Assembly: GCA_022601395.1 (NCBI GenBank)
Contig: JAJACS010000007.1
Location: forward strand, 2,620-66,619
Direction: 5' to 3'
Source: Chlamydiia bacterium
GTDB lineage: Bacteria; Chlamydiota; Chlamydiia; Chlamydiales; GCA-2402025
DNA: 64,000 bases
The number at the start of each line of letters is the position of its first letter. Positions within the stretch are counted from its first letter, which is position 1. The translations under genes and the position numbers were made by a program. Shown here one piece after another: positions 58,034 through 61,353 of the stretch. The notes beneath the pieces were generated by a model, which saw only the letters and a list, made by a program, of their open reading frames with translations, was not told the DNA's origin and ran no database searches.

Positions 58034-58639
58034 GTGAATCCGAAAGATTTGCCAATTCTGAAAGAGATTTTTCAGAAACTTCATGAGGATGAGAAGTTTA
58101 AGGTTAAATTCTTAAATAATCCAAAGGAAGTTATGGAACAAATGGGCATGCTAAGTACTGAAGGAAAAGAGGTTATCGCAAAAGAGAACTCAAAAACCGT
58201 GTTAAACTTTGTCATTCCTGAAAAACTCCCCAAGAATTTTAAGAGAATCGAGCGGCTCCCAACAAACCCAAAGCTTGAGCAGGTGACAAAATGGATCACT
58301 CAGCAAATTCTCGAAAATGGAACATACAAAGAAGCACTACTTGCAGACACCATGGGAGTTCTGAAAAAAGAAGGGATCAAAGTCCCTGAAGATATACGTC
58401 TTAATATTTTGCTGAACACAGATAAGACGATGTATATCGTAATCCCAAGAAAGCTTGGGAACAATGAAGAGTTAAACAATATTGAACTGCAAGCTGTATC
58501 CGGTGGAAAAGGTGAAGTACGAGAAATGGGAAATTCCAACAAATTTGGGTTTACGCAGATCAATTTTAATGTCTCTCATAGTCTGTTTTTACTCGGAAAC
58601 AACTATGGAGACCTTACAGAAGACAATAGTAACTATTAA
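58034..58639 (+). CDS. Double-glycine precursor 1: duplicated NHLP-like leader + 43-aa core
   Basis: 201 aa, GTG start. The leader (res 1-158) contains two NHLP-like repeats and ends ELQAVSGG (GG codons 58502-58507). Core: KGEVREMGNSNKFGFTQINFNVSHSLFLLGNNYGDLTEDNSNY. Confidence 0.85.
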   Translation: MNPKDLPILKEIFQKLHEDEKFKVKFLNNPKEVMEQMGMLSTEGKEVIAKENSKTVLNFVIPEKLPKNFKRIERLPTNPKLEQVTKWITQQILENGTYKEALLADTMGVLKKEGIKVPEDIRLNILLNTDKTMYIVIPRKLGNNEELNNIELQAVSGGKGEVREMGNSNKFGFTQINFNVSHSLFLLGNNYGDLTEDNSNY

Positions 58640-58654
58640 AAAAGGGCATGTCAC

Positions 58655-59308
58655 ATGAAAGCAGAAGATTTAAACAAGCTTCATCAAGTAATGAGAAGAG
58701 CTCATTCTGATGATTCATTTAAGGCAAGATTACTTAAAAATCCAAGAGAGGTTTTTGAGAAAGAAGGAGTGGAACTATCAAAAGATAAACAGATAAGAGT
58801 AATGGAAAACACCAAAGATACTTTTTATCTATCCATTCCTAAAAGAAGAATTCCTAAAGAGGCAATGTTAAGAGAGCTTCCAAAAAATTCAACTCTTGGT
58901 CACGTCACAGCGTGGATTACAACACAAATCCAAGAGGGCACTCCGCTTAAAGAAAAGCTCCTTAAAAACCCTACTGAAGAGCTAGCAAAGCTCGGGGTAA
59001 ATATGCCTAAAGGTCTTAGAGTAAAACTTCTTCTAAATACCGACTCTGAGATGTATTTTGTGATTCCTCGAAAAATCTCAGAAGGAGAAGAGCTTCACGA
59101 CATGGAACTGCAAGCAGTTTCAGGTGGTAAAGGAGATAGTACTGCTGTTGATAAACCTACAGAAAACATGGACACAAGCATTGCAGCATCTATTTCACAC
59201 TCTTTTGACTCTACAACACAAAACACAGATTCCGGGAACACCACAATGGGTGGCCACAACAGCTTGTTTTTAATGGGCTCTAATTTCGGAACAATTGACC
59301 AAGGATAA
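58655..59308 (+). CDS. Double-glycine precursor 2: duplicated NHLP-like leader + 59-aa core
   Basis: 217 aa. The leader ends ELQAVSGG at res 157-158 and the core starts at nt 59129: KGDSTAVDKPTENMDTSIAASISHSFDSTTQNTDSGNTTMGGHNSLFLMGSNFGTIDQG. Confidence 0.88.
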   Translation: MKAEDLNKLHQVMRRAHSDDSFKARLLKNPREVFEKEGVELSKDKQIRVMENTKDTFYLSIPKRRIPKEAMLRELPKNSTLGHVTAWITTQIQEGTPLKEKLLKNPTEELAKLGVNMPKGLRVKLLLNTDSEMYFVIPRKISEGEELHDMELQAVSGGKGDSTAVDKPTENMDTSIAASISHSFDSTTQNTDSGNTTMGGHNSLFLMGSNFGTIDQG

Positions 59309-59310
59309 GT

Positions 59311-59958
59311 ATGAAAGGAGCTGATTTAAACAGGTTACATCAAGTCCTGAAAAAAGTTCATGGGGATGAATCTTTTAAGACAAAACTTCTCAAAAATCCA
59401 AGAGAGGTTTTTGAGAGTGAAGGGATTCTGCTACCAAAGGAAAGAGAGGTTAAAGTAGTCGAAAACACTAAGGAAGTTTTCTACATAGTAATCCCTAAGA
59501 AAACAGTTCCTAAGGAGGCTATGCTTAAAAACCTTCCTAAAAACCCCAACCTCAGCCATATCACAGCTTTTGTGACAACGCAAATACAGCAAAACGCTCC
59601 TCTTAAGGAAAAGCTCCTTAAAAGCCCAACAGAAGAGCTTGCTAAGCTCGGGATTGATATACCAAAAGGTCTCAAGATCAAGTTACTTTTAAACACTGAT
59701 AAAGAACTGTATTTTGTGATCCCAAGGAAGATATCAGAGGGAGAAGAACTCCACGATTTAGAGCTGCAGGCTGTTTCAGGTGGAAATGCGAAATCATTTT
59801 CTAACTACGGAAATAGTAGCGTAACAACCGATGGAAGCCATACTAGTGAAAGTGCAAGTGCTGGGGATTCTTCAGCAACACTTTCTGGAAACACTGTTAT
59901 GGGAGGAGGAAACACTGTTTCTTCTACAATAGCTAATTTTTCACCTTTTGATTTCTAA
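59311..59958 (+). CDS. Double-glycine precursor 3: duplicated NHLP-like leader + 57-aa core
   Basis: 215 aa, starting 2 nt after precursor 2. The leader ends ELQAVSGG and the core starts at nt 59785: NAKSFSNYGNSSVTTDGSHTSESASAGDSSATLSGNTVMGGGNTVSSTIANFSPFDF. Confidence 0.88.
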   Translation: MKGADLNRLHQVLKKVHGDESFKTKLLKNPREVFESEGILLPKEREVKVVENTKEVFYIVIPKKTVPKEAMLKNLPKNPNLSHITAFVTTQIQQNAPLKEKLLKSPTEELAKLGIDIPKGLKIKLLLNTDKELYFVIPRKISEGEELHDLELQAVSGGNAKSFSNYGNSSVTTDGSHTSESASAGDSSATLSGNTVMGGGNTVSSTIANFSPFDF

Positions 59959-60003
59959 GTGAAAAGAATGCTTAATTTTTACTAAAAAATAATAAGAGGA
60001 AAA

Positions 60004-60675
60004 ATGGATAAAAAAGATTTTGCAAAGCTTGTAAAGCACATCAAGGACACTTGCAAAACAGCAGAAGGTAAAAAAAGAATTCTTTCTGATCCTAAAGCTG
60101 TTTTCAAAGAGTCTGGAGTACCATTCCCTGAAGATGTAAAAGTGAAATTTGTTGAAAATACTAAAGAGCTTTTAAATCTAGTTGTTCCAAATGAACCGCT
60201 ACCAAAATCTCTCCAGGTGAAAAAAATCTCTAGACAACCAACCTATTACGAAATAGGCCTTTGGTTTATGACAGAAATTCAATCAAACTCTTCATTAAAA
60301 GAGCGTATTCTGAAAGAACCCGAAACCGTCTTAAGGGAAAACAAACTTCCTGTCCCAGAGCACATAAAAATCAAAGTCTATCAGAACACAGACAAAATGA
60401 TGTACTTCGTTGTACCAAGAGTCATGAAAGAAGGTGAAGAACTCTCTGATGTTGACCTGCAAAGTGTAACAGGTGGAGCAGGTAAACAAAGTATTGGGGG
60501 CTCTATATTTGGACAAACCTCTACTTCATCTCCAACAACAAACGCAAGCGCATCTAATGGTGGTGCTGGTGGTGGAGAGTCCGGCGGAGAATCAGGTGGA
60601 GAGTCAGGTGGAGATGACTCTGGCGAAGGTGGTATTATGGGAACATTAAAAGGGCTACTCCCCTTTAACTTCTAA
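60004..60675 (+). CDS. Double-glycine precursor 4 (subfamily 2): duplicated NHLP-like leader + 65-aa core
   Basis: 223 aa. The leader ends DLQSVTGG at res 157-158 and the core starts at nt 60478: AGKQSIGGSIFGQTSTSSPTTNASASNGGAGGGESGGESGGESGGDDSGEGGIMGTLKGLLPFNF. Confidence 0.88.
   Translation: MDKKDFAKLVKHIKDTCKTAEGKKRILSDPKAVFKESGVPFPEDVKVKFVENTKELLNLVVPNEPLPKSLQVKKISRQPTYYEIGLWFMTEIQSNSSLKERILKEPETVLRENKLPVPEHIKIKVYQNTDKMMYFVVPRVMKEGEELSDVDLQSVTGGAGKQSIGGSIFGQTSTSSPTTNASASNGGAGGGESGGESGGESGGDDSGEGGIMGTLKGLLPFNF
60571..60618 (+). repeat. 12-nt in-frame tandem repeat encoding (GGES)3-GGDD in the core of precursor 4
   Basis: GGTGGAGAGTCC GGCGGAGAATCA GGTGGAGAGTCA GGTGGAGATGAC, four imperfect 12-mers. 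Confidence 0.8.
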
Positions 60676-60696
60676 ACGACAAAAAAGGTGAAAATT

Positions 60697-61353
60697 ATGA
60701 ATAAAGAAGATGTCATCAAGCTAGCAAAACATATAAAGAGAGTTAGCTGTTCTTCTGAAGATGGAAAAAAAAGGCTCCTTACGAATCCTAAAGAAGTATT
60801 TAAGGAAGCAGGAGTTCCATTTCCAGAACACAAAAAGGTAAAGTTTATAGAGAATAAAAAGGACCTCTATAACTTAGTAGTTCCTTGTAAAAGACTCCCT
60901 CGCGCAGTACGTGTAGAAAGGCTTTCAACAACGCCTTCCTATCGTGAAATCATGTTTTGGATGATCACACAAATCCAAGACAACACTCCTCTTAAAAATC
61001 GACTTCTAAAAGAACCACTAAAAGTACTACAAGAAAACAAGGTTAAGGTAGCAGATCATGTTAAAATCAACGTATATGAGAACTCAGACACAATGATGTA
61101 TCTTGTTGTACCAAGATCACAAAAAGAAGGTGAAGAGCTTTCTGATTTGGAGCTGCAAAGTGTAACGGGTGGTTCAGCAAAGCAAAGTATTGGAGGTTCT
61201 GACTTCCATCAAACCTCAACAGCAGATCCAAGCACTAATGCAAGCTTAGGACTTGGAGATATGTTTGGTGGAGGAGAAGGTGGTGAAGGTGGTGAAGGCC
61301 GAGAAGCTGGAGAGCTCGGCGGACTTGAAGATCTCCTTCCACTTGCTATGTAA
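60697..61353 (+). CDS. Double-glycine precursor 5 (subfamily 2): duplicated NHLP-like leader + 59-aa core
   Basis: The track start GTG 60688 is probably part of the SD (AAGGTG). ATG 60697 gives MNKEDVIKLAKHIK, aligning with precursor 4. The leader ends ELQSVTGG and the core starts at nt 61174: SAKQSIGGSDFHQTSTADPSTNASLGLGDMFGGGEGGEGGEGREAGELGGLEDLLPLAM. Confidence 0.88.
   Translation: MNKEDVIKLAKHIKRVSCSSEDGKKRLLTNPKEVFKEAGVPFPEHKKVKFIENKKDLYNLVVPCKRLPRAVRVERLSTTPSYREIMFWMITQIQDNTPLKNRLLKEPLKVLQENKVKVADHVKINVYENSDTMMYLVVPRSQKEGEELSDLELQSVTGGSAKQSIGGSDFHQTSTADPSTNASLGLGDMFGGGEGGEGGEGREAGELGGLEDLLPLAM
61267..61299 (+). repeat. 9-nt in-frame tandem repeat encoding (GGE)3 in the core of precursor 5
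   Basis: GGTGGAGGAGAA GGTGGTGAA GGTGGTGAA GGC, imperfect 9-mers. Confidence 0.7.

What the first reader, a model, noticed from the sequence alone, without database searches (positions are those of the whole stretch)
58034..61173. The leaders are a tandem duplication of the NHLP domain, giving ~157-residue double-glycine leaders
In every precursor the GG site falls at residue 157-158 (158-159 in precursor 5 from ATG 60697). In precursor 2, the first half is LHQVMRRAHSDDSFKARLLKNPREVFEKEGVELSKDKQIRVMENTKDTFYLSIPKR. The second half is VTAWITTQIQEGTPLKEKLLKNPTEELAKLGVNMPKGLRVKLLLNTDSEMYFVIPRK. They align with each other through a shared (K/R)LLKNP.E....G(V/I)......(V/L)....NT....Y..IP(K/R) pattern. 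Each half matches the known single NHLP leader pattern (...F...L..NP...L...G..lP.g..v.vvENT....yfVlP...). Only the second copy is followed by the acidic EGEEL-x-D-x-ELQ-x-V-x-GG cleavage helix. Ordinary double-glycine leaders are 15-30 aa and single NHLP leaders are around 80 aa. I am not aware of a described family with a duplicated NHLP leader. The first copy might recruit a partner (a maturase elsewhere, the acidic adaptor tail or the non-peptidase ABC), or it might act as an intramolecular chaperone or immunity module.
Basis: partly seen in the sequence, partly recalled or inferred. Interest (0 to 1): 0.8.

Follow-up and report, generated by a model that had tools for sequence, protein, structure and literature searches.

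The report
Doubled NHLP leaders on exported peptides
Five neighbouring genes in an environmental chlamydia encode small exported peptides whose unusually long 157-residue leader is a doubled copy of a known leader domain, predicted to fold as one compact unit; this variant is common in sequence databases, but I found no paper describing it.

Summary
Five tandem + strand genes (58034-61353) encode 201-223 aa precursors. In each, the NHLP leader model TIGR03793 hits twice (86-103 bits, cutoff 50.9), and the first Gly-Gly sits at residues 157-158 (158-159 in precursor 5 from ATG 60697). The internal repeat is far above chance (z 5-16).

I tested the rival idea, that the leader simply retains the two-repeat body of nitrile hydratase alpha, and core-only and linker profile tests did not support it.

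AlphaFold predicts one compact two-lobed domain (pLDDT 91, pTM 0.82). Only nitrile hydratase alpha-type chains match it (TM 0.51-0.55).

The architecture is not unique. Of the 150 best 50%-identity clusters in an exhaustive search, 141 outside this window carry two to four units. The window belongs to an old subfamily ("type A") with a fixed-length linker. Five other type A loci encode PoyD-type radical SAM epimerases (proteusin pathways).

This window holds only the dedicated C39/ABC/HlyD/TolC export cassette and a conserved 290-aa GNAT.

No paper found describes multi-unit NHLP leaders. Verdict: a new variant of a known kind, of moderate interest.

The parts
58034..58639 (+). Precursor 1 (201 aa from GTG). 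NHLP unit 1 is at residues 7-65 (58052-58228), unit 2 at 84-141 (58283-58456), GG at 157-158 (58502-58507), and the core at 159-201.
   Evidence: TIGR03793 scores 86.5 bits with 2 stretches. The public annotation starts at the internal Met34 (P0004, 168 aa), which truncates unit 1.
58655..59308 (+). Precursor 2 (217 aa). Unit 1 is at residues 6-65 (58670-58849), the linker at 66-83, unit 2 at 84-141 (58904-59077), the acidic helix at 149-156, GG at 157-158 (59123-59128), and the disordered core at 159-217.
   Evidence: TIGR03793 scores 101.3 bits with 2 stretches. AF2 pLDDT is >=94 for residues 1-140; predicted elements are H3-18, H20-28, H30-36, E46-51, E56-61, H81-94, H98-104, H106-112, E122-127, E132-137 and H149-156.
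59311..59958 (+). Precursor 3 (215 aa). Unit 1 is at residues 6-65, unit 2 at 84-141, GG at 157-158 (59779-59784), and the core at 159-215.
   Evidence: TIGR03793 scores 102.8 bits with 2 stretches. The leader is 70% identical to that of precursor 2.
60004..60675 (+). Precursor 4 (223 aa). Unit 1 is at residues 7-64, unit 2 at 83-141, GG at 157-158 (60472-60477), and the Gly/Ser-rich core at 159-223.
   Evidence: TIGR03793 scores 86.3 bits with 2 stretches.
60688..61353 (+). Precursor 5 (221 aa from GTG 60688; 218 aa from ATG 60697). Unit 1 is at residues 10-69, unit 2 at 87-145, GG at 161-162 (61168-61173), and the core at 163-221.
   Evidence: TIGR03793 scores 87.9 bits with 2 stretches. P0008 is the 218-aa form held in public databases.
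52387..54591 (-). NHLP-family bacteriocin export ABC transporter with an N-terminal C39 peptidase domain. It is the inferred leader-cleaving exporter.
   Evidence: TIGR03796 scores 853.3 bits, equal to its cutoff of 853.3. Pfam Peptidase_C39 scores 108.7 bits. It is 55% identical to the Simkaniaceae ortholog.
49418..52390 (-). Second, peptidase-less NHLP export ABC permease/ATPase (990 aa). About 293 N-terminal residues are unassigned.
   Evidence: TIGR03797 scores 713.9 bits (cutoff 709.4) and covers residues 294-989. No Pfam domain is found in residues 1-300.
54591..56144 (-). NHLP bacteriocin system HlyD-type periplasmic adaptor, with an acidic low-complexity N-terminal tail of about 100 aa.
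   Evidence: TIGR03794 scores 176.3 bits against a cutoff of 156.2. The sequence is given.
56141..57802 (-). TolC/OEP-type outer membrane channel.
   Evidence: Pfam OEP scores 98.7 bits. It is 42% identical to the Simkaniaceae ortholog.
48549..49421 (+). 290-aa GNAT-family protein. It is the only conserved candidate maturase at this locus, and that role is inferred.
   Evidence: Acetyltransf_1 hit. Full-length homologs sit beside double-NHLP precursors in L001 (E 2e-38), L006 (E 4e-37) and L005 (E 2e-21).

Best explanation
The five genes encode NHLP-type (proteusin-class) ribosomal peptide precursors.

**Architecture (shown or predicted)**
- The 157-residue leader consists of two NHLP units.
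- The units derive from an ancient tandem duplication of an already-formed NHLP unit (inferred from sequence comparisons).
- Each unit is predicted to form three helices plus a beta-hairpin.
- The two units are predicted to pack against each other into one rigid two-lobed domain. That domain recreates the overall shape of the nitrile hydratase alpha subunit without its metal site.
- A flexible amphipathic acidic helix (L-12, E-8, L-7, V-4) and Gly-Gly follow the second unit only.

**Export (inferred from gene content)**
- The adjacent C39-peptidase ABC transporter cleaves after Gly-Gly.
- Together with the second ABC protein, the HlyD adaptor and the TolC-like channel, it exports the 43-65 residue, Cys-free, Gly/Ser/Thr/Asn-rich cores.

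**Role of the folded domain (inferred from sister loci)**
- The folded two-unit domain is the docking platform for leader-dependent maturases.
- In sister loci of the same subfamily these are PoyD-type radical SAM epimerases and B12-radical SAM C-methyltransferases.
- In this window the only conserved candidate is a 290-aa GNAT. It could acylate the Lys found at core position +1 to +3 in all five peptides.
- Whether the cores are modified at all in this organism is unresolved.
For: **Two units per leader**
- TIGR03793 hits every protein with two stretches above the curated cutoff.
- A unit HMM places two domains of 79-95 bits each.
- The internal repeat scores z 5.4-16 against shuffles.

**Duplication of an NHLP unit, not NHase retention**
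- On 40 core columns, both chlamydial units score 77 against single NHLPs and 63 against each other, but only 48-60 against NHase repeats 1 and 2. NHase repeat 1 against repeat 2 scores 37.
- Both units share the same mosaic of states: ENT as in repeat 1, and G..xP and V-x-P as in repeat 2.
- The linker resembles an NHLP tail (z 2.8, 0.006 of shuffles reach it). It does not resemble the metal-claw segment (z 0.4, 0.31).
- Duplication of NHLP units demonstrably recurs. In type B proteins the units are up to 87% identical, and in 21 of 88 the two units are each other's closest relatives.

**Ancient and constrained**
- In 49 of 49 type A proteins, unit 1 is closer to another protein's unit 1 than to its own unit 2.
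- Between-protein identity is equal for unit 1 and unit 2 (0.28 each).

**One folded domain**
- AF2 on the leader alone gives pLDDT 91.2 and pTM 0.82.
- Foldseek finds only NHase alpha and SCNase gamma chains, with TMq 0.51-0.55 over 138-179 aligned columns. The NMR NHLP structure 8tb1 fits one unit at rmsd 1.8 Å.

**Export**
- TIGR03796, TIGR03797 and TIGR03794 all score at or above their cutoffs, and an OEP gene is adjacent.
- The cassette is conserved at the Simkaniaceae locus.

**Maturase docking**
- Type A precursors are followed by TIGR04517 PoyD epimerases in L001, L003 and L005 (487-525 bits). L004 and L007 carry homologous genes at the same position.
- TIGR03975 C-methyltransferases are also present in L003 and L005.
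- NHLP leaders are known structured docking domains (PMC10858898, PMC12537861).

**GNAT**
- The 290-aa GNAT is conserved in four loci.
- Selidamide GNATs acylate Lys or Orn at core position 1-2 in a leader-dependent manner (PMC8784127, PMC13647313).
Against: - Whole-leader alignments to NHase alpha are collinear (precursor 5 residues 23-159 against 1v29_A 77-200). Whole-half profiles show reciprocal preferences. Retention of the NHase two-repeat body is therefore not excluded.
- The NHase set used for the core and linker tests is narrow: all sequences are at least 73% identical to the B. smithii fragment.
- The linker against its own unit-2 tail reaches only z 1.4 (0.09 of shuffles reach it).
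- Foldseek rmsd is 6-8 Å, so the similarity in lobe packing is approximate.
- The structure is a prediction.
- No PoyD, B12-rSAM, LanM or YcaO homolog lies in the 64-kb window.
- The GNAT role rests on gene neighbourhood only. It was not compared directly with KspN or PhaN.
- Cleavage and export were not tested. The TIGR01847 double-glycine signal model is sub-threshold (10.4-12.9 bits against 15.7).
Confidence: 0.7

Rival explanations
1. The long leader is not a new duplication. It is a retained, near-complete nitrile hydratase alpha body, which already has two repeats flanking the metal site, that has lost its CxxCSC claw. On this view it is an evolutionary intermediate from which the short ~80-aa NHLP arose by the 63-residue deletion.
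For: - NHase alpha carries the motif twice: 1v29_A residues 69-113 and 139-195.
- Precursors 1 and 5 align collinearly to Pfam NHase_alpha positions 46-174 and to 1v29_A residues 77-200.
- Whole-half profiles prefer the collinear repeat: 33.6 against 23.3 bits, and 29.6 against 17.9 bits.
- The whole leader matches the NHase alpha fold with TM 0.51-0.55.
- Haft 2010 describes NHLP as NHase alpha minus 63 residues.
Against: - With the flanks removed, neither unit prefers repeat 1. Both units are closer to single NHLPs and to each other than to either NHase repeat.
- The linker shows no similarity to the metal-claw segment (z 0.4).
- Unit 2 has a full NHLP N-helix (TIGR03793 positions 4-77) that NHase repeat 2 lacks; it appears as an 11-residue insertion relative to NHase.
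Confidence: 0.12
2. The peptides are exported unmodified. On this view the locus is a plain large-leader bacteriocin or secreted-peptide export system, and the two-unit domain acts only as a solubility or chaperone and export handle. The neighbouring GNAT would be unrelated to it.
For: - No rSAM, LanM or YcaO maturase lies in the window.
- The cores lack Cys and are hydrophilic and Gly/Ser-rich. They differ from the Ala/Val/Asn-rich cores of sister loci that have PoyD.
- The export cassette is complete.
Against: - The 290-aa GNAT is conserved next to double-NHLP precursors in four loci from different lineages.
- All five cores have Lys at +1 to +3.
- The window covers only 64 kb of a MAG, so maturases could be encoded elsewhere. 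Haft 2010 reports distant precursor and maturase genes as common.
Confidence: 0.3
3. The two units are functionally separate addresses. Unit 1 recruits maturases or an immunity or adaptor partner, and unit 2 with the acidic helix addresses the C39 exporter. On this view they do not act as one domain.
For: - Only unit 2 carries the cleavage helix.
- Unit 1 and unit 2 are equally conserved, so both are under selection.
- Different NHLP-binding enzymes are known to use different leader surfaces (PMC10858898, PMC12537861).
Against: - AF2 predicts a single rigid domain with a well-ordered linker (pLDDT 93-96 across residues 60-80; pTM 0.82).
- The fixed linker length across about 55 clusters argues for a packed interface, not a flexible tether.
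- No binding data exist.
Confidence: 0.2
4. The architecture is an artefact: two adjacent single-NHLP genes fused by a sequencing or assembly error.
For: None was found. The source is a metagenome-assembled genome.
Against: - Five paralogs share the same architecture.
- A Simkaniaceae homolog and at least 141 other clusters share it.
- Unit 1 is never followed by GG or a core.
- The linker length is fixed.
Confidence: 0.01

Closest known systems
Canonical NHLP leader precursors (TIGR03793; Haft, Basu & Mitchell 2010) with the NHLM export cassette (TIGR03794/03796/03797)
   Same: - Same leader unit, scoring above the curated cutoff.
- No CxxCSC metal motif.
- Acidic helix and Gly-Gly at the end of the homology region, followed by a hypervariable core.
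- Several paralogous precursors next to the same dedicated three-gene export cassette.
   Different: The leader has two units (157 aa) instead of one (an average of 83-87 aa in Haft 2010). The first unit has lost the tail and GG and is joined by a conserved fixed-length linker. An OEP gene is part of the cassette.
Proteusins (polytheonamide/PoyA, aeronamide and landornamide type): NHLP-leader RiPPs matured by PoyD-type radical SAM epimerases
   Same: The type A subfamily to which these leaders belong sits next to TIGR04517 PoyD epimerases and TIGR03975 C-methyltransferases in sister loci. That includes the chlamydial relative L001.
   Different: - The window itself has no epimerase or methyltransferase.
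- Its cores are hydrophilic and Gly/Ser/Thr/Asn-rich, not Ala/Val/Asn-rich.
- From my own memory of the PoyA sequence, which I did not check with a tool, characterised proteusin leaders are single-unit.
Nitrile hydratase alpha subunit (PF02979 / TIGR01323)
   Same: - It is the only structural match for the whole leader (TM 0.51-0.55).
- It has two motif copies in the same order.
- The Pfam gathering threshold is passed.
   Different: - No metal-binding CxxCSC motif.
- The TIGR01323 equivalog cutoff is missed by about 200 bits.
- No beta subunit gene is nearby.
- Unit 2 has an extra N-helix.
- Core residues are NHLP-like, not repeat-specific.
Fused NHLP-Burk pairs (TIGR03795) in Delftia and Acidovorax (Haft 2010)
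   Same: This is a precedent for two NHase-related leader-type modules in one polypeptide.
   Different: Those are fusions of two complete tandem precursor genes of a different family and have no Gly-Gly export motif. Here only the leader unit is doubled and there is one core.
Selidamide-type RiPP lipopeptide clusters (KspN, PhaN and NpuN GNATs)
   Same: - A GNAT lies beside NHLP precursors that have a GG junction and a basic residue at the start of the core.
- L006 combines a double-NHLP precursor, LanM, a homologous GNAT and a C39 ABC exporter.
   Different: No LanM or arginase is present in the window. The relationship of the 290-aa GNAT to KspN or PhaN was not tested.

Membership tests
NHLP leader peptide family RiPP precursor (TIGR03793) | Model score above the curated cutoff (50.9 bits) | tested here: met
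   86.3-102.8 bits for all five proteins, two stretches each.
NHLP leader peptide family RiPP precursor (TIGR03793) | Lacks the NHase CxxCSC metal-binding segment | tested here: met
   No CxxCSC motif in any of the five window precursors or the 153 retrieved proteins.
NHLP leader peptide family RiPP precursor (TIGR03793) | Gly-Gly at the end of the conserved region, followed by a hypervariable core | tested here: met
   GG is at residues 157-158. Conservation ends there, and the cores diverge.
NHLP leader peptide family RiPP precursor (TIGR03793) | A single leader domain of about 80-90 residues | tested here: not met
   Two units and a 157-residue leader. This is the variant feature.
NHLM bacteriocin export system | Adjacent TIGR03796 (C39 ABC), TIGR03797 (ABC2) and TIGR03794 (HlyD) genes | tested here: met
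   Scores are 853.3, 713.9 and 176.3 bits against cutoffs of 853.3, 709.4 and 156.2.
Proteusins | A PoyD-type radical SAM epimerase or other proteusin maturase in the cluster | tested here: not met
   tblastn with PoyD, B12-rSAM and methyltransferase proteins found nothing in the 64-kb window at E<=1e-3. The feature is met in sister loci L001, L003 and L005 by TIGR04517. L004 and L007 carry homologous genes at the same position.
Nitrile hydratase alpha subunit | Equivalog model TIGR01323 at or above 249.85 bits, and the CxxCSC claw | tested here: not met
   37.8-53.9 bits, and no CxxCSC motif. The Pfam PF02979 domain threshold is nevertheless passed.
Double-glycine (C39-processed) leaders | GG preceded by hydrophobic residues at -4, -7 and -12, and a cognate C39 transporter | tested here: met
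   EELHDMELQAVSGG gives V-4, L-7 and L-12. Peptidase_C39 scores 108.7 bits in the adjacent ABC protein. The TIGR01847 signal model is sub-threshold. Cleavage itself is not testable with these tools.
Selidamide-type GNAT maturation | A RiPP-clade GNAT that acylates Lys or Orn at core position 1-2 | not testable with these tools
   The evidence is neighbourhood conservation and Lys at +1 to +3 only. No KspN or PhaN sequence was on hand.

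The most novel reading that the evidence does not exclude
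The type A two-unit leader is a distinct, co-evolved "two-address" docking domain. Its two lobes would present separate surfaces to different partners: PoyD-type epimerase or GNAT on one, and the C39 exporter on the other. That would define a new leader logic for a proteusin subfamily, used here by an obligate-intracellular-lineage chlamydia to export modified, possibly lipidated, peptides.
Probability: 0.2. Interest if true: 0.65.

Novelty: new variant of a known kind. Interest (0 to 1): 0.5.

Why it matters
NHLP leaders are currently studied as the first "protein-like" RiPP leaders, with NMR structures published in 2024-2025. All of that work treats them as a single ~60-residue folded unit.

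- Showing that two- to four-unit leaders are widespread changes what genome miners should expect. One subfamily has an ancient, fixed-geometry, NHase-alpha-shaped double unit tied to PoyD epimerases.
- Precursors of 160-230 aa are easily dismissed as "hypothetical protein", as happened here, or have their starts mis-called.
- The finding offers a natural system for asking how large folded leaders engage several enzymes and the C39 exporter.
- It also documents a RiPP-type export locus in environmental chlamydiae.

It does not reveal a new kind of system.

Tried and rejected
1. **NHase retention hypothesis.** I first favoured it after the collinear PDB alignments and the 2x2 half-profile result. 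I rejected it as the leading explanation after the core-only comparison and the anchored linker test.
2. **"LP" spacing.** By eye, the spacing from the beta-strand to the "LP" looked identical in the type A linker and the NHase claw segment. It is not significant (offset-0 score -22.7; best z 0.4).
3. **Genome-collection scans.** A1 gave 78 pattern hits, none confirmed. A4 and A6 were too diverse for the pattern tool. Only the single-protein query P0041 gave a named genome. The taxonomic breadth of type A is therefore poorly sampled.
4. **Word-seeded homolog searches.** They reached few relatives (7 and 17 hits). The exhaustive HMMER search was needed.
5. **PF27793.** It appears in precomputed hits and turned out to be "RNP_Burkhold" with only faint hits. 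It is not a model for this architecture.
6. **Cluster names.** The listing of cluster members gave almost no names or taxa for type A representatives.
7. **ABC2 N-terminal extension.** There is no Pfam domain in the window protein, and only a sub-threshold cNMP_binding hit in the Simkaniaceae ortholog.
8. **GNAT against PDB.** Only generic RimI and PaiA-type GNAT matches to the N-terminal ~100 residues.
9. **Promoter and terminator scan.** Sites flank the array sensibly, but their counts are not above chance.
10. **Literature.** Six full-text searches found no paper describing tandem, double or multi-domain NHLP leaders. The library lacks most subscription-journal papers, so this is absence of evidence only.

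Full report
**What is there**

The region 58034-61353 holds five tandem + strand ORFs of 201-223 aa. The first Gly-Gly is at residues 157-158 in precursors 1-4. In precursor 5 it is at 161-162 from GTG 60688, which is 158-159 from ATG 60697.

The source is a metagenome-assembled Chlamydiia genome (S4CHLAM37), where these genes are annotated "hypothetical protein". Precursor 1 is annotated from an internal Met.

The neighbours on the - strand are the dedicated NHLP bacteriocin export genes:

| Gene | Model | Score (bits) | Cutoff (bits) |
|---|---|---|---|
| C39-peptidase ABC | TIGR03796 | 853.3 | 853.3 |
| Second ABC | TIGR03797 | 713.9 | 709.4 |
| HlyD adaptor | TIGR03794 | 176.3 | 156.2 |
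| TolC/OEP channel | Pfam OEP | 98.7 | 22 |

A 290-aa GNAT lies at 48549-49421. A different 204-aa GNAT lies at 61355-61969. 5S and 23S rRNA genes follow at 62063-64000.

- TIGR03793 (NHLP leader) hits all five proteins with two stretches each, at 86-103 bits against a cutoff of 50.9.
- A unit HMM built here places the units at about residues 6-65 and 84-141, at 79-95 bits each.
- Half against half alignments score 5.4-16 SD above 1000 shuffles, and no shuffle reaches the observed score.
- A Simkaniaceae homolog (P0003) has the same two units and GG at 157-158.

**Duplication or retained enzyme body?**

PDB searches showed that NHase alpha itself has the motif twice: 1v29_A residues 69-113, ending at the CTLCSC metal site, and residues 139-195. 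Precursor 5 residues 23-159 align collinearly with 1v29_A residues 77-200. Haft et al. 2010 describe the canonical NHLP as NHase alpha with a 63-residue deletion that removes CxxCSC (PMC2887384). The long leader could therefore have been an undeleted form.

Profiles of half 1 and half 2 gave a reciprocal pattern against 1v29_A:

| Profile | vs repeat 1 (bits) | vs repeat 2 (bits) |
|---|---|---|
| Half 1 | 33.6 | 23.3 |
| Half 2 | 17.9 | 29.6 |

Those scores include the N-helix and the acidic tail, which canonical NHLPs also have. I therefore aligned all units and 40 NHase alpha sequences on one 61-column frame and compared only the 40 core columns.

- Chlamydial unit 1 scores 54.0 against repeat 1 and 58.0 against repeat 2.
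- Chlamydial unit 2 scores 48.0 against repeat 1 and 59.5 against repeat 2.
- The two units score 63.1 against each other and 77 against single NHLPs.
- NHase repeat 1 against repeat 2 scores only 37.1.
- No unit class prefers repeat 1.
- Both units carry the same mosaic of states: ENT as in repeat 1, and G..xP and V-x-P as in repeat 2.

I also ran a register-anchored linker test.

- The type A linker shows no similarity to the metal-claw segment (z 0.4; 0.31 of shuffles reach it).
- It resembles canonical NHLP tails (z 2.8; 0.006) and type B linkers (z 2.0; 0.02).
- Against its own unit-2 tail it reaches z 1.4 (0.09).
- Positive controls gave z 2.7-3.7.

Duplication of an already-formed NHLP unit is therefore the better-supported origin. 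I put it at about 0.75 against 0.12 for retention. The caveat is that the NHase sample is narrow.

**How common is it?**

An exhaustive HMMER search of 1.84 billion cluster representatives with the 158-position leader profile gave 3569 hits at E<=1e-3 and 362 at E<=1e-10.

- Of the best 150 representatives, 144 have two or more units. Of those, 141 are not from this window, and five of them have three or four units (P0038, P0051, P0066, P0067, P0144).
- None has CxxCSC.

Two flavours exist.

- **Type A.** About 55 clusters, including this window, share a fixed-length linker: VVP-x3-LP-x4-L-x2-LP-xx-P(S/T)...(W/F)(I/V)IT-x-(I/V)Q.
  - Within-protein unit identity is low (median 0.26).
  - In 49 of 49 proteins, unit 1 is closer to another protein's unit 1 than to its own unit 2.
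  - Both units are equally conserved between proteins (0.28 each).
  - Together this indicates one old duplication with both units under constraint.
- **Type B.** These are plain tandem NHLPs with unit identities up to 0.87. In 21 of 88 proteins the two units are each other's closest relatives, so the duplication recurs independently.

**Structure**

- AF2 with a 49-sequence type A alignment gives pLDDT >=94 over residues 1-140 and a disordered core.
- The leader alone gives pLDDT 91.2 and pTM 0.82.
- Each unit is three helices plus a beta-hairpin. This is the element order of the NMR structures of single NHLPs (PMC10858898, PMC12537861).
- The helix at residues 149-156 before GG has lower confidence, which matches the flexible alpha-4 seen by NMR.
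- Foldseek finds only NHase alpha and SCNase gamma chains, with probability 1.00, TMq 0.51-0.55 and 138-179 aligned columns.
- The NMR structure 8tb1 fits one unit over 53 columns at rmsd 1.8 Å.
- The doubled leader thus rebuilds an NHase-alpha-like two-lobed body, with approximate geometry (rmsd 6-8 Å).

**Context in relatives**

| Locus | Source | Precursor type | Neighbouring genes |
|---|---|---|---|
| L001 | Simkaniaceae MAG | Type A (P0003) | Same export cassette (41-55% identity), homologous 288-aa GNAT, PoyD epimerase (TIGR04517, 487 bits), AprA-like methyltransferase |
| L003 | ENA MAG contig | Type A | PoyD epimerase (525 bits), B12-rSAM C-methyltransferase (TIGR03975, 718 bits), HemK-like methyltransferase |
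| L004, L007 | Metagenome contigs | Type A | PoyD homolog, B12-rSAM, methyltransferase, sulfotransferase |
| L005 | Thermoanaerobaculia MAG (Acidobacteriota) | Type A (P0041) | Two TIGR03975 C-methyltransferases (511 and 535 bits), PoyD epimerase (495 bits) |
| L006 | Metagenome contig | Type B (P0157) | LanM, homologous 306-aa GNAT, HlyD-like adaptor, C39 ABC |

The cores in L003, L004 and L007 are Asn/Val-rich, and L005's is Ala/Val/Asn-rich. All four resemble polytheonamide cores.

The window has none of the radical SAM enzymes. The ~290-aa GNAT family is shared by the window, L001, L005 and L006 (E 2e-21 to 2e-38 over about 260-285 residues).

Selidamide GNATs acylate Lys or Orn at core position 1-2 in a leader-dependent way (PMC8784127, PMC13647313). 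All five window cores have Lys at +1 to +3. This makes the GNAT a candidate maturase by inference only.

**Mechanism**

- Shown or predicted: two NHLP units per leader, one predicted folded domain, the GG junction motif, a dedicated C39/ABC/HlyD/OEP cassette, and membership of a subfamily associated with PoyD.
- Inferred: cleavage after G157-G158 and export of the 43-65 residue core; the folded double unit as the docking platform for leader-dependent enzymes; and GNAT acylation of the N-proximal Lys.
- Unresolved: why two units are needed, and whether these cores are modified at all.

**Novelty**

Six full-text searches found no description of multi-unit NHLP leaders. Haft 2010 mentions only fused NHLP-Burk gene pairs. 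No NCBIfam or Pfam model is specific for the architecture.

It is a variant of a well-known kind and is abundant in public data. I rate interest as moderate (0.5).

Noticed in passing
window 58034-58639: The public annotation of precursor 1 (S4CHLAM37_07740, P0004, 168 aa) starts at the internal Met34 and cuts off half of NHLP unit 1. The GTG at 58034 restores a complete unit 1 (79 bits). The precursors for which a source name was returned (S4CHLAM37_07740 to _07760) are called 'hypothetical protein'.
   Followed up: partly
window 55845-56144 (- strand): The HlyD adaptor has an N-terminal tail of about 100 residues that is highly acidic and rich in Ser, Glu, Pro and Asn. The Simkaniaceae ortholog is 94 residues shorter (423 against 517 aa). 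The tail's function is unknown.
   Followed up: partly
window 51512-52390 (- strand): The peptidase-less ABC protein has about 293 N-terminal residues outside the TIGR03797 model, with no Pfam hit. The Simkaniaceae ortholog gives only a sub-threshold cNMP_binding hit (E 0.0026). This could be a regulatory or substrate-binding domain.
   Followed up: partly
window 48549-49421; L001 8933-9799; L006 12506-13426; L005 ~15900-16748: A ~290-aa GNAT family, with a conserved region of about 170 aa after the acetyltransferase domain, recurs beside double-NHLP precursors in four loci from different lineages. All five window cores have Lys within three residues of the GG site.
   Followed up: partly
L001 10753-12147; L003 10664-12196: The N-termini of PoyD-type epimerases themselves hit NHLP-clan models (NF038399 at 38.6 bits over residues 7-49; TIGR04509). 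The enzyme therefore carries an NHLP-like helical segment.
   Followed up: no
P0038, P0051, P0067 (four units); P0066, P0144 (three units); P0075: Leaders with three or four NHLP units exist, with Arg/Trp-rich or Gly/Tyr-rich cores. P0075 (520 aa) has an unrelated N-terminal region of about 300 aa in front of a type A double unit.
   Followed up: no
P0003, P0023, P0026, P0029 (cores): Several type A cores begin with His-rich runs right after the GG or AG junction, for example KHHHHHHGG in the Simkaniaceae peptide. This may indicate metal binding.
   Followed up: no
window 62063-62177 and 62310-64000 (- strand): 5S rRNA and the 3' 1.7 kb of 23S rRNA lie immediately downstream of the locus. This explains the GC rise to 47% at the window end.
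   Followed up: yes
window cores: 58508-58636, 59129-59305, 60478-60672, 61174-61350: The cores fall into similar pairs. Precursors 1 and 2 share SHS(L/F)...LF(L/M)(L/M)G(N/S)N(Y/F)G. Precursors 4 and 5 share KQSIGGS.F.QTST...TNAS...GG(E/G) repeats and ...LLP(F/L). This hints at two-peptide products.
   Followed up: no
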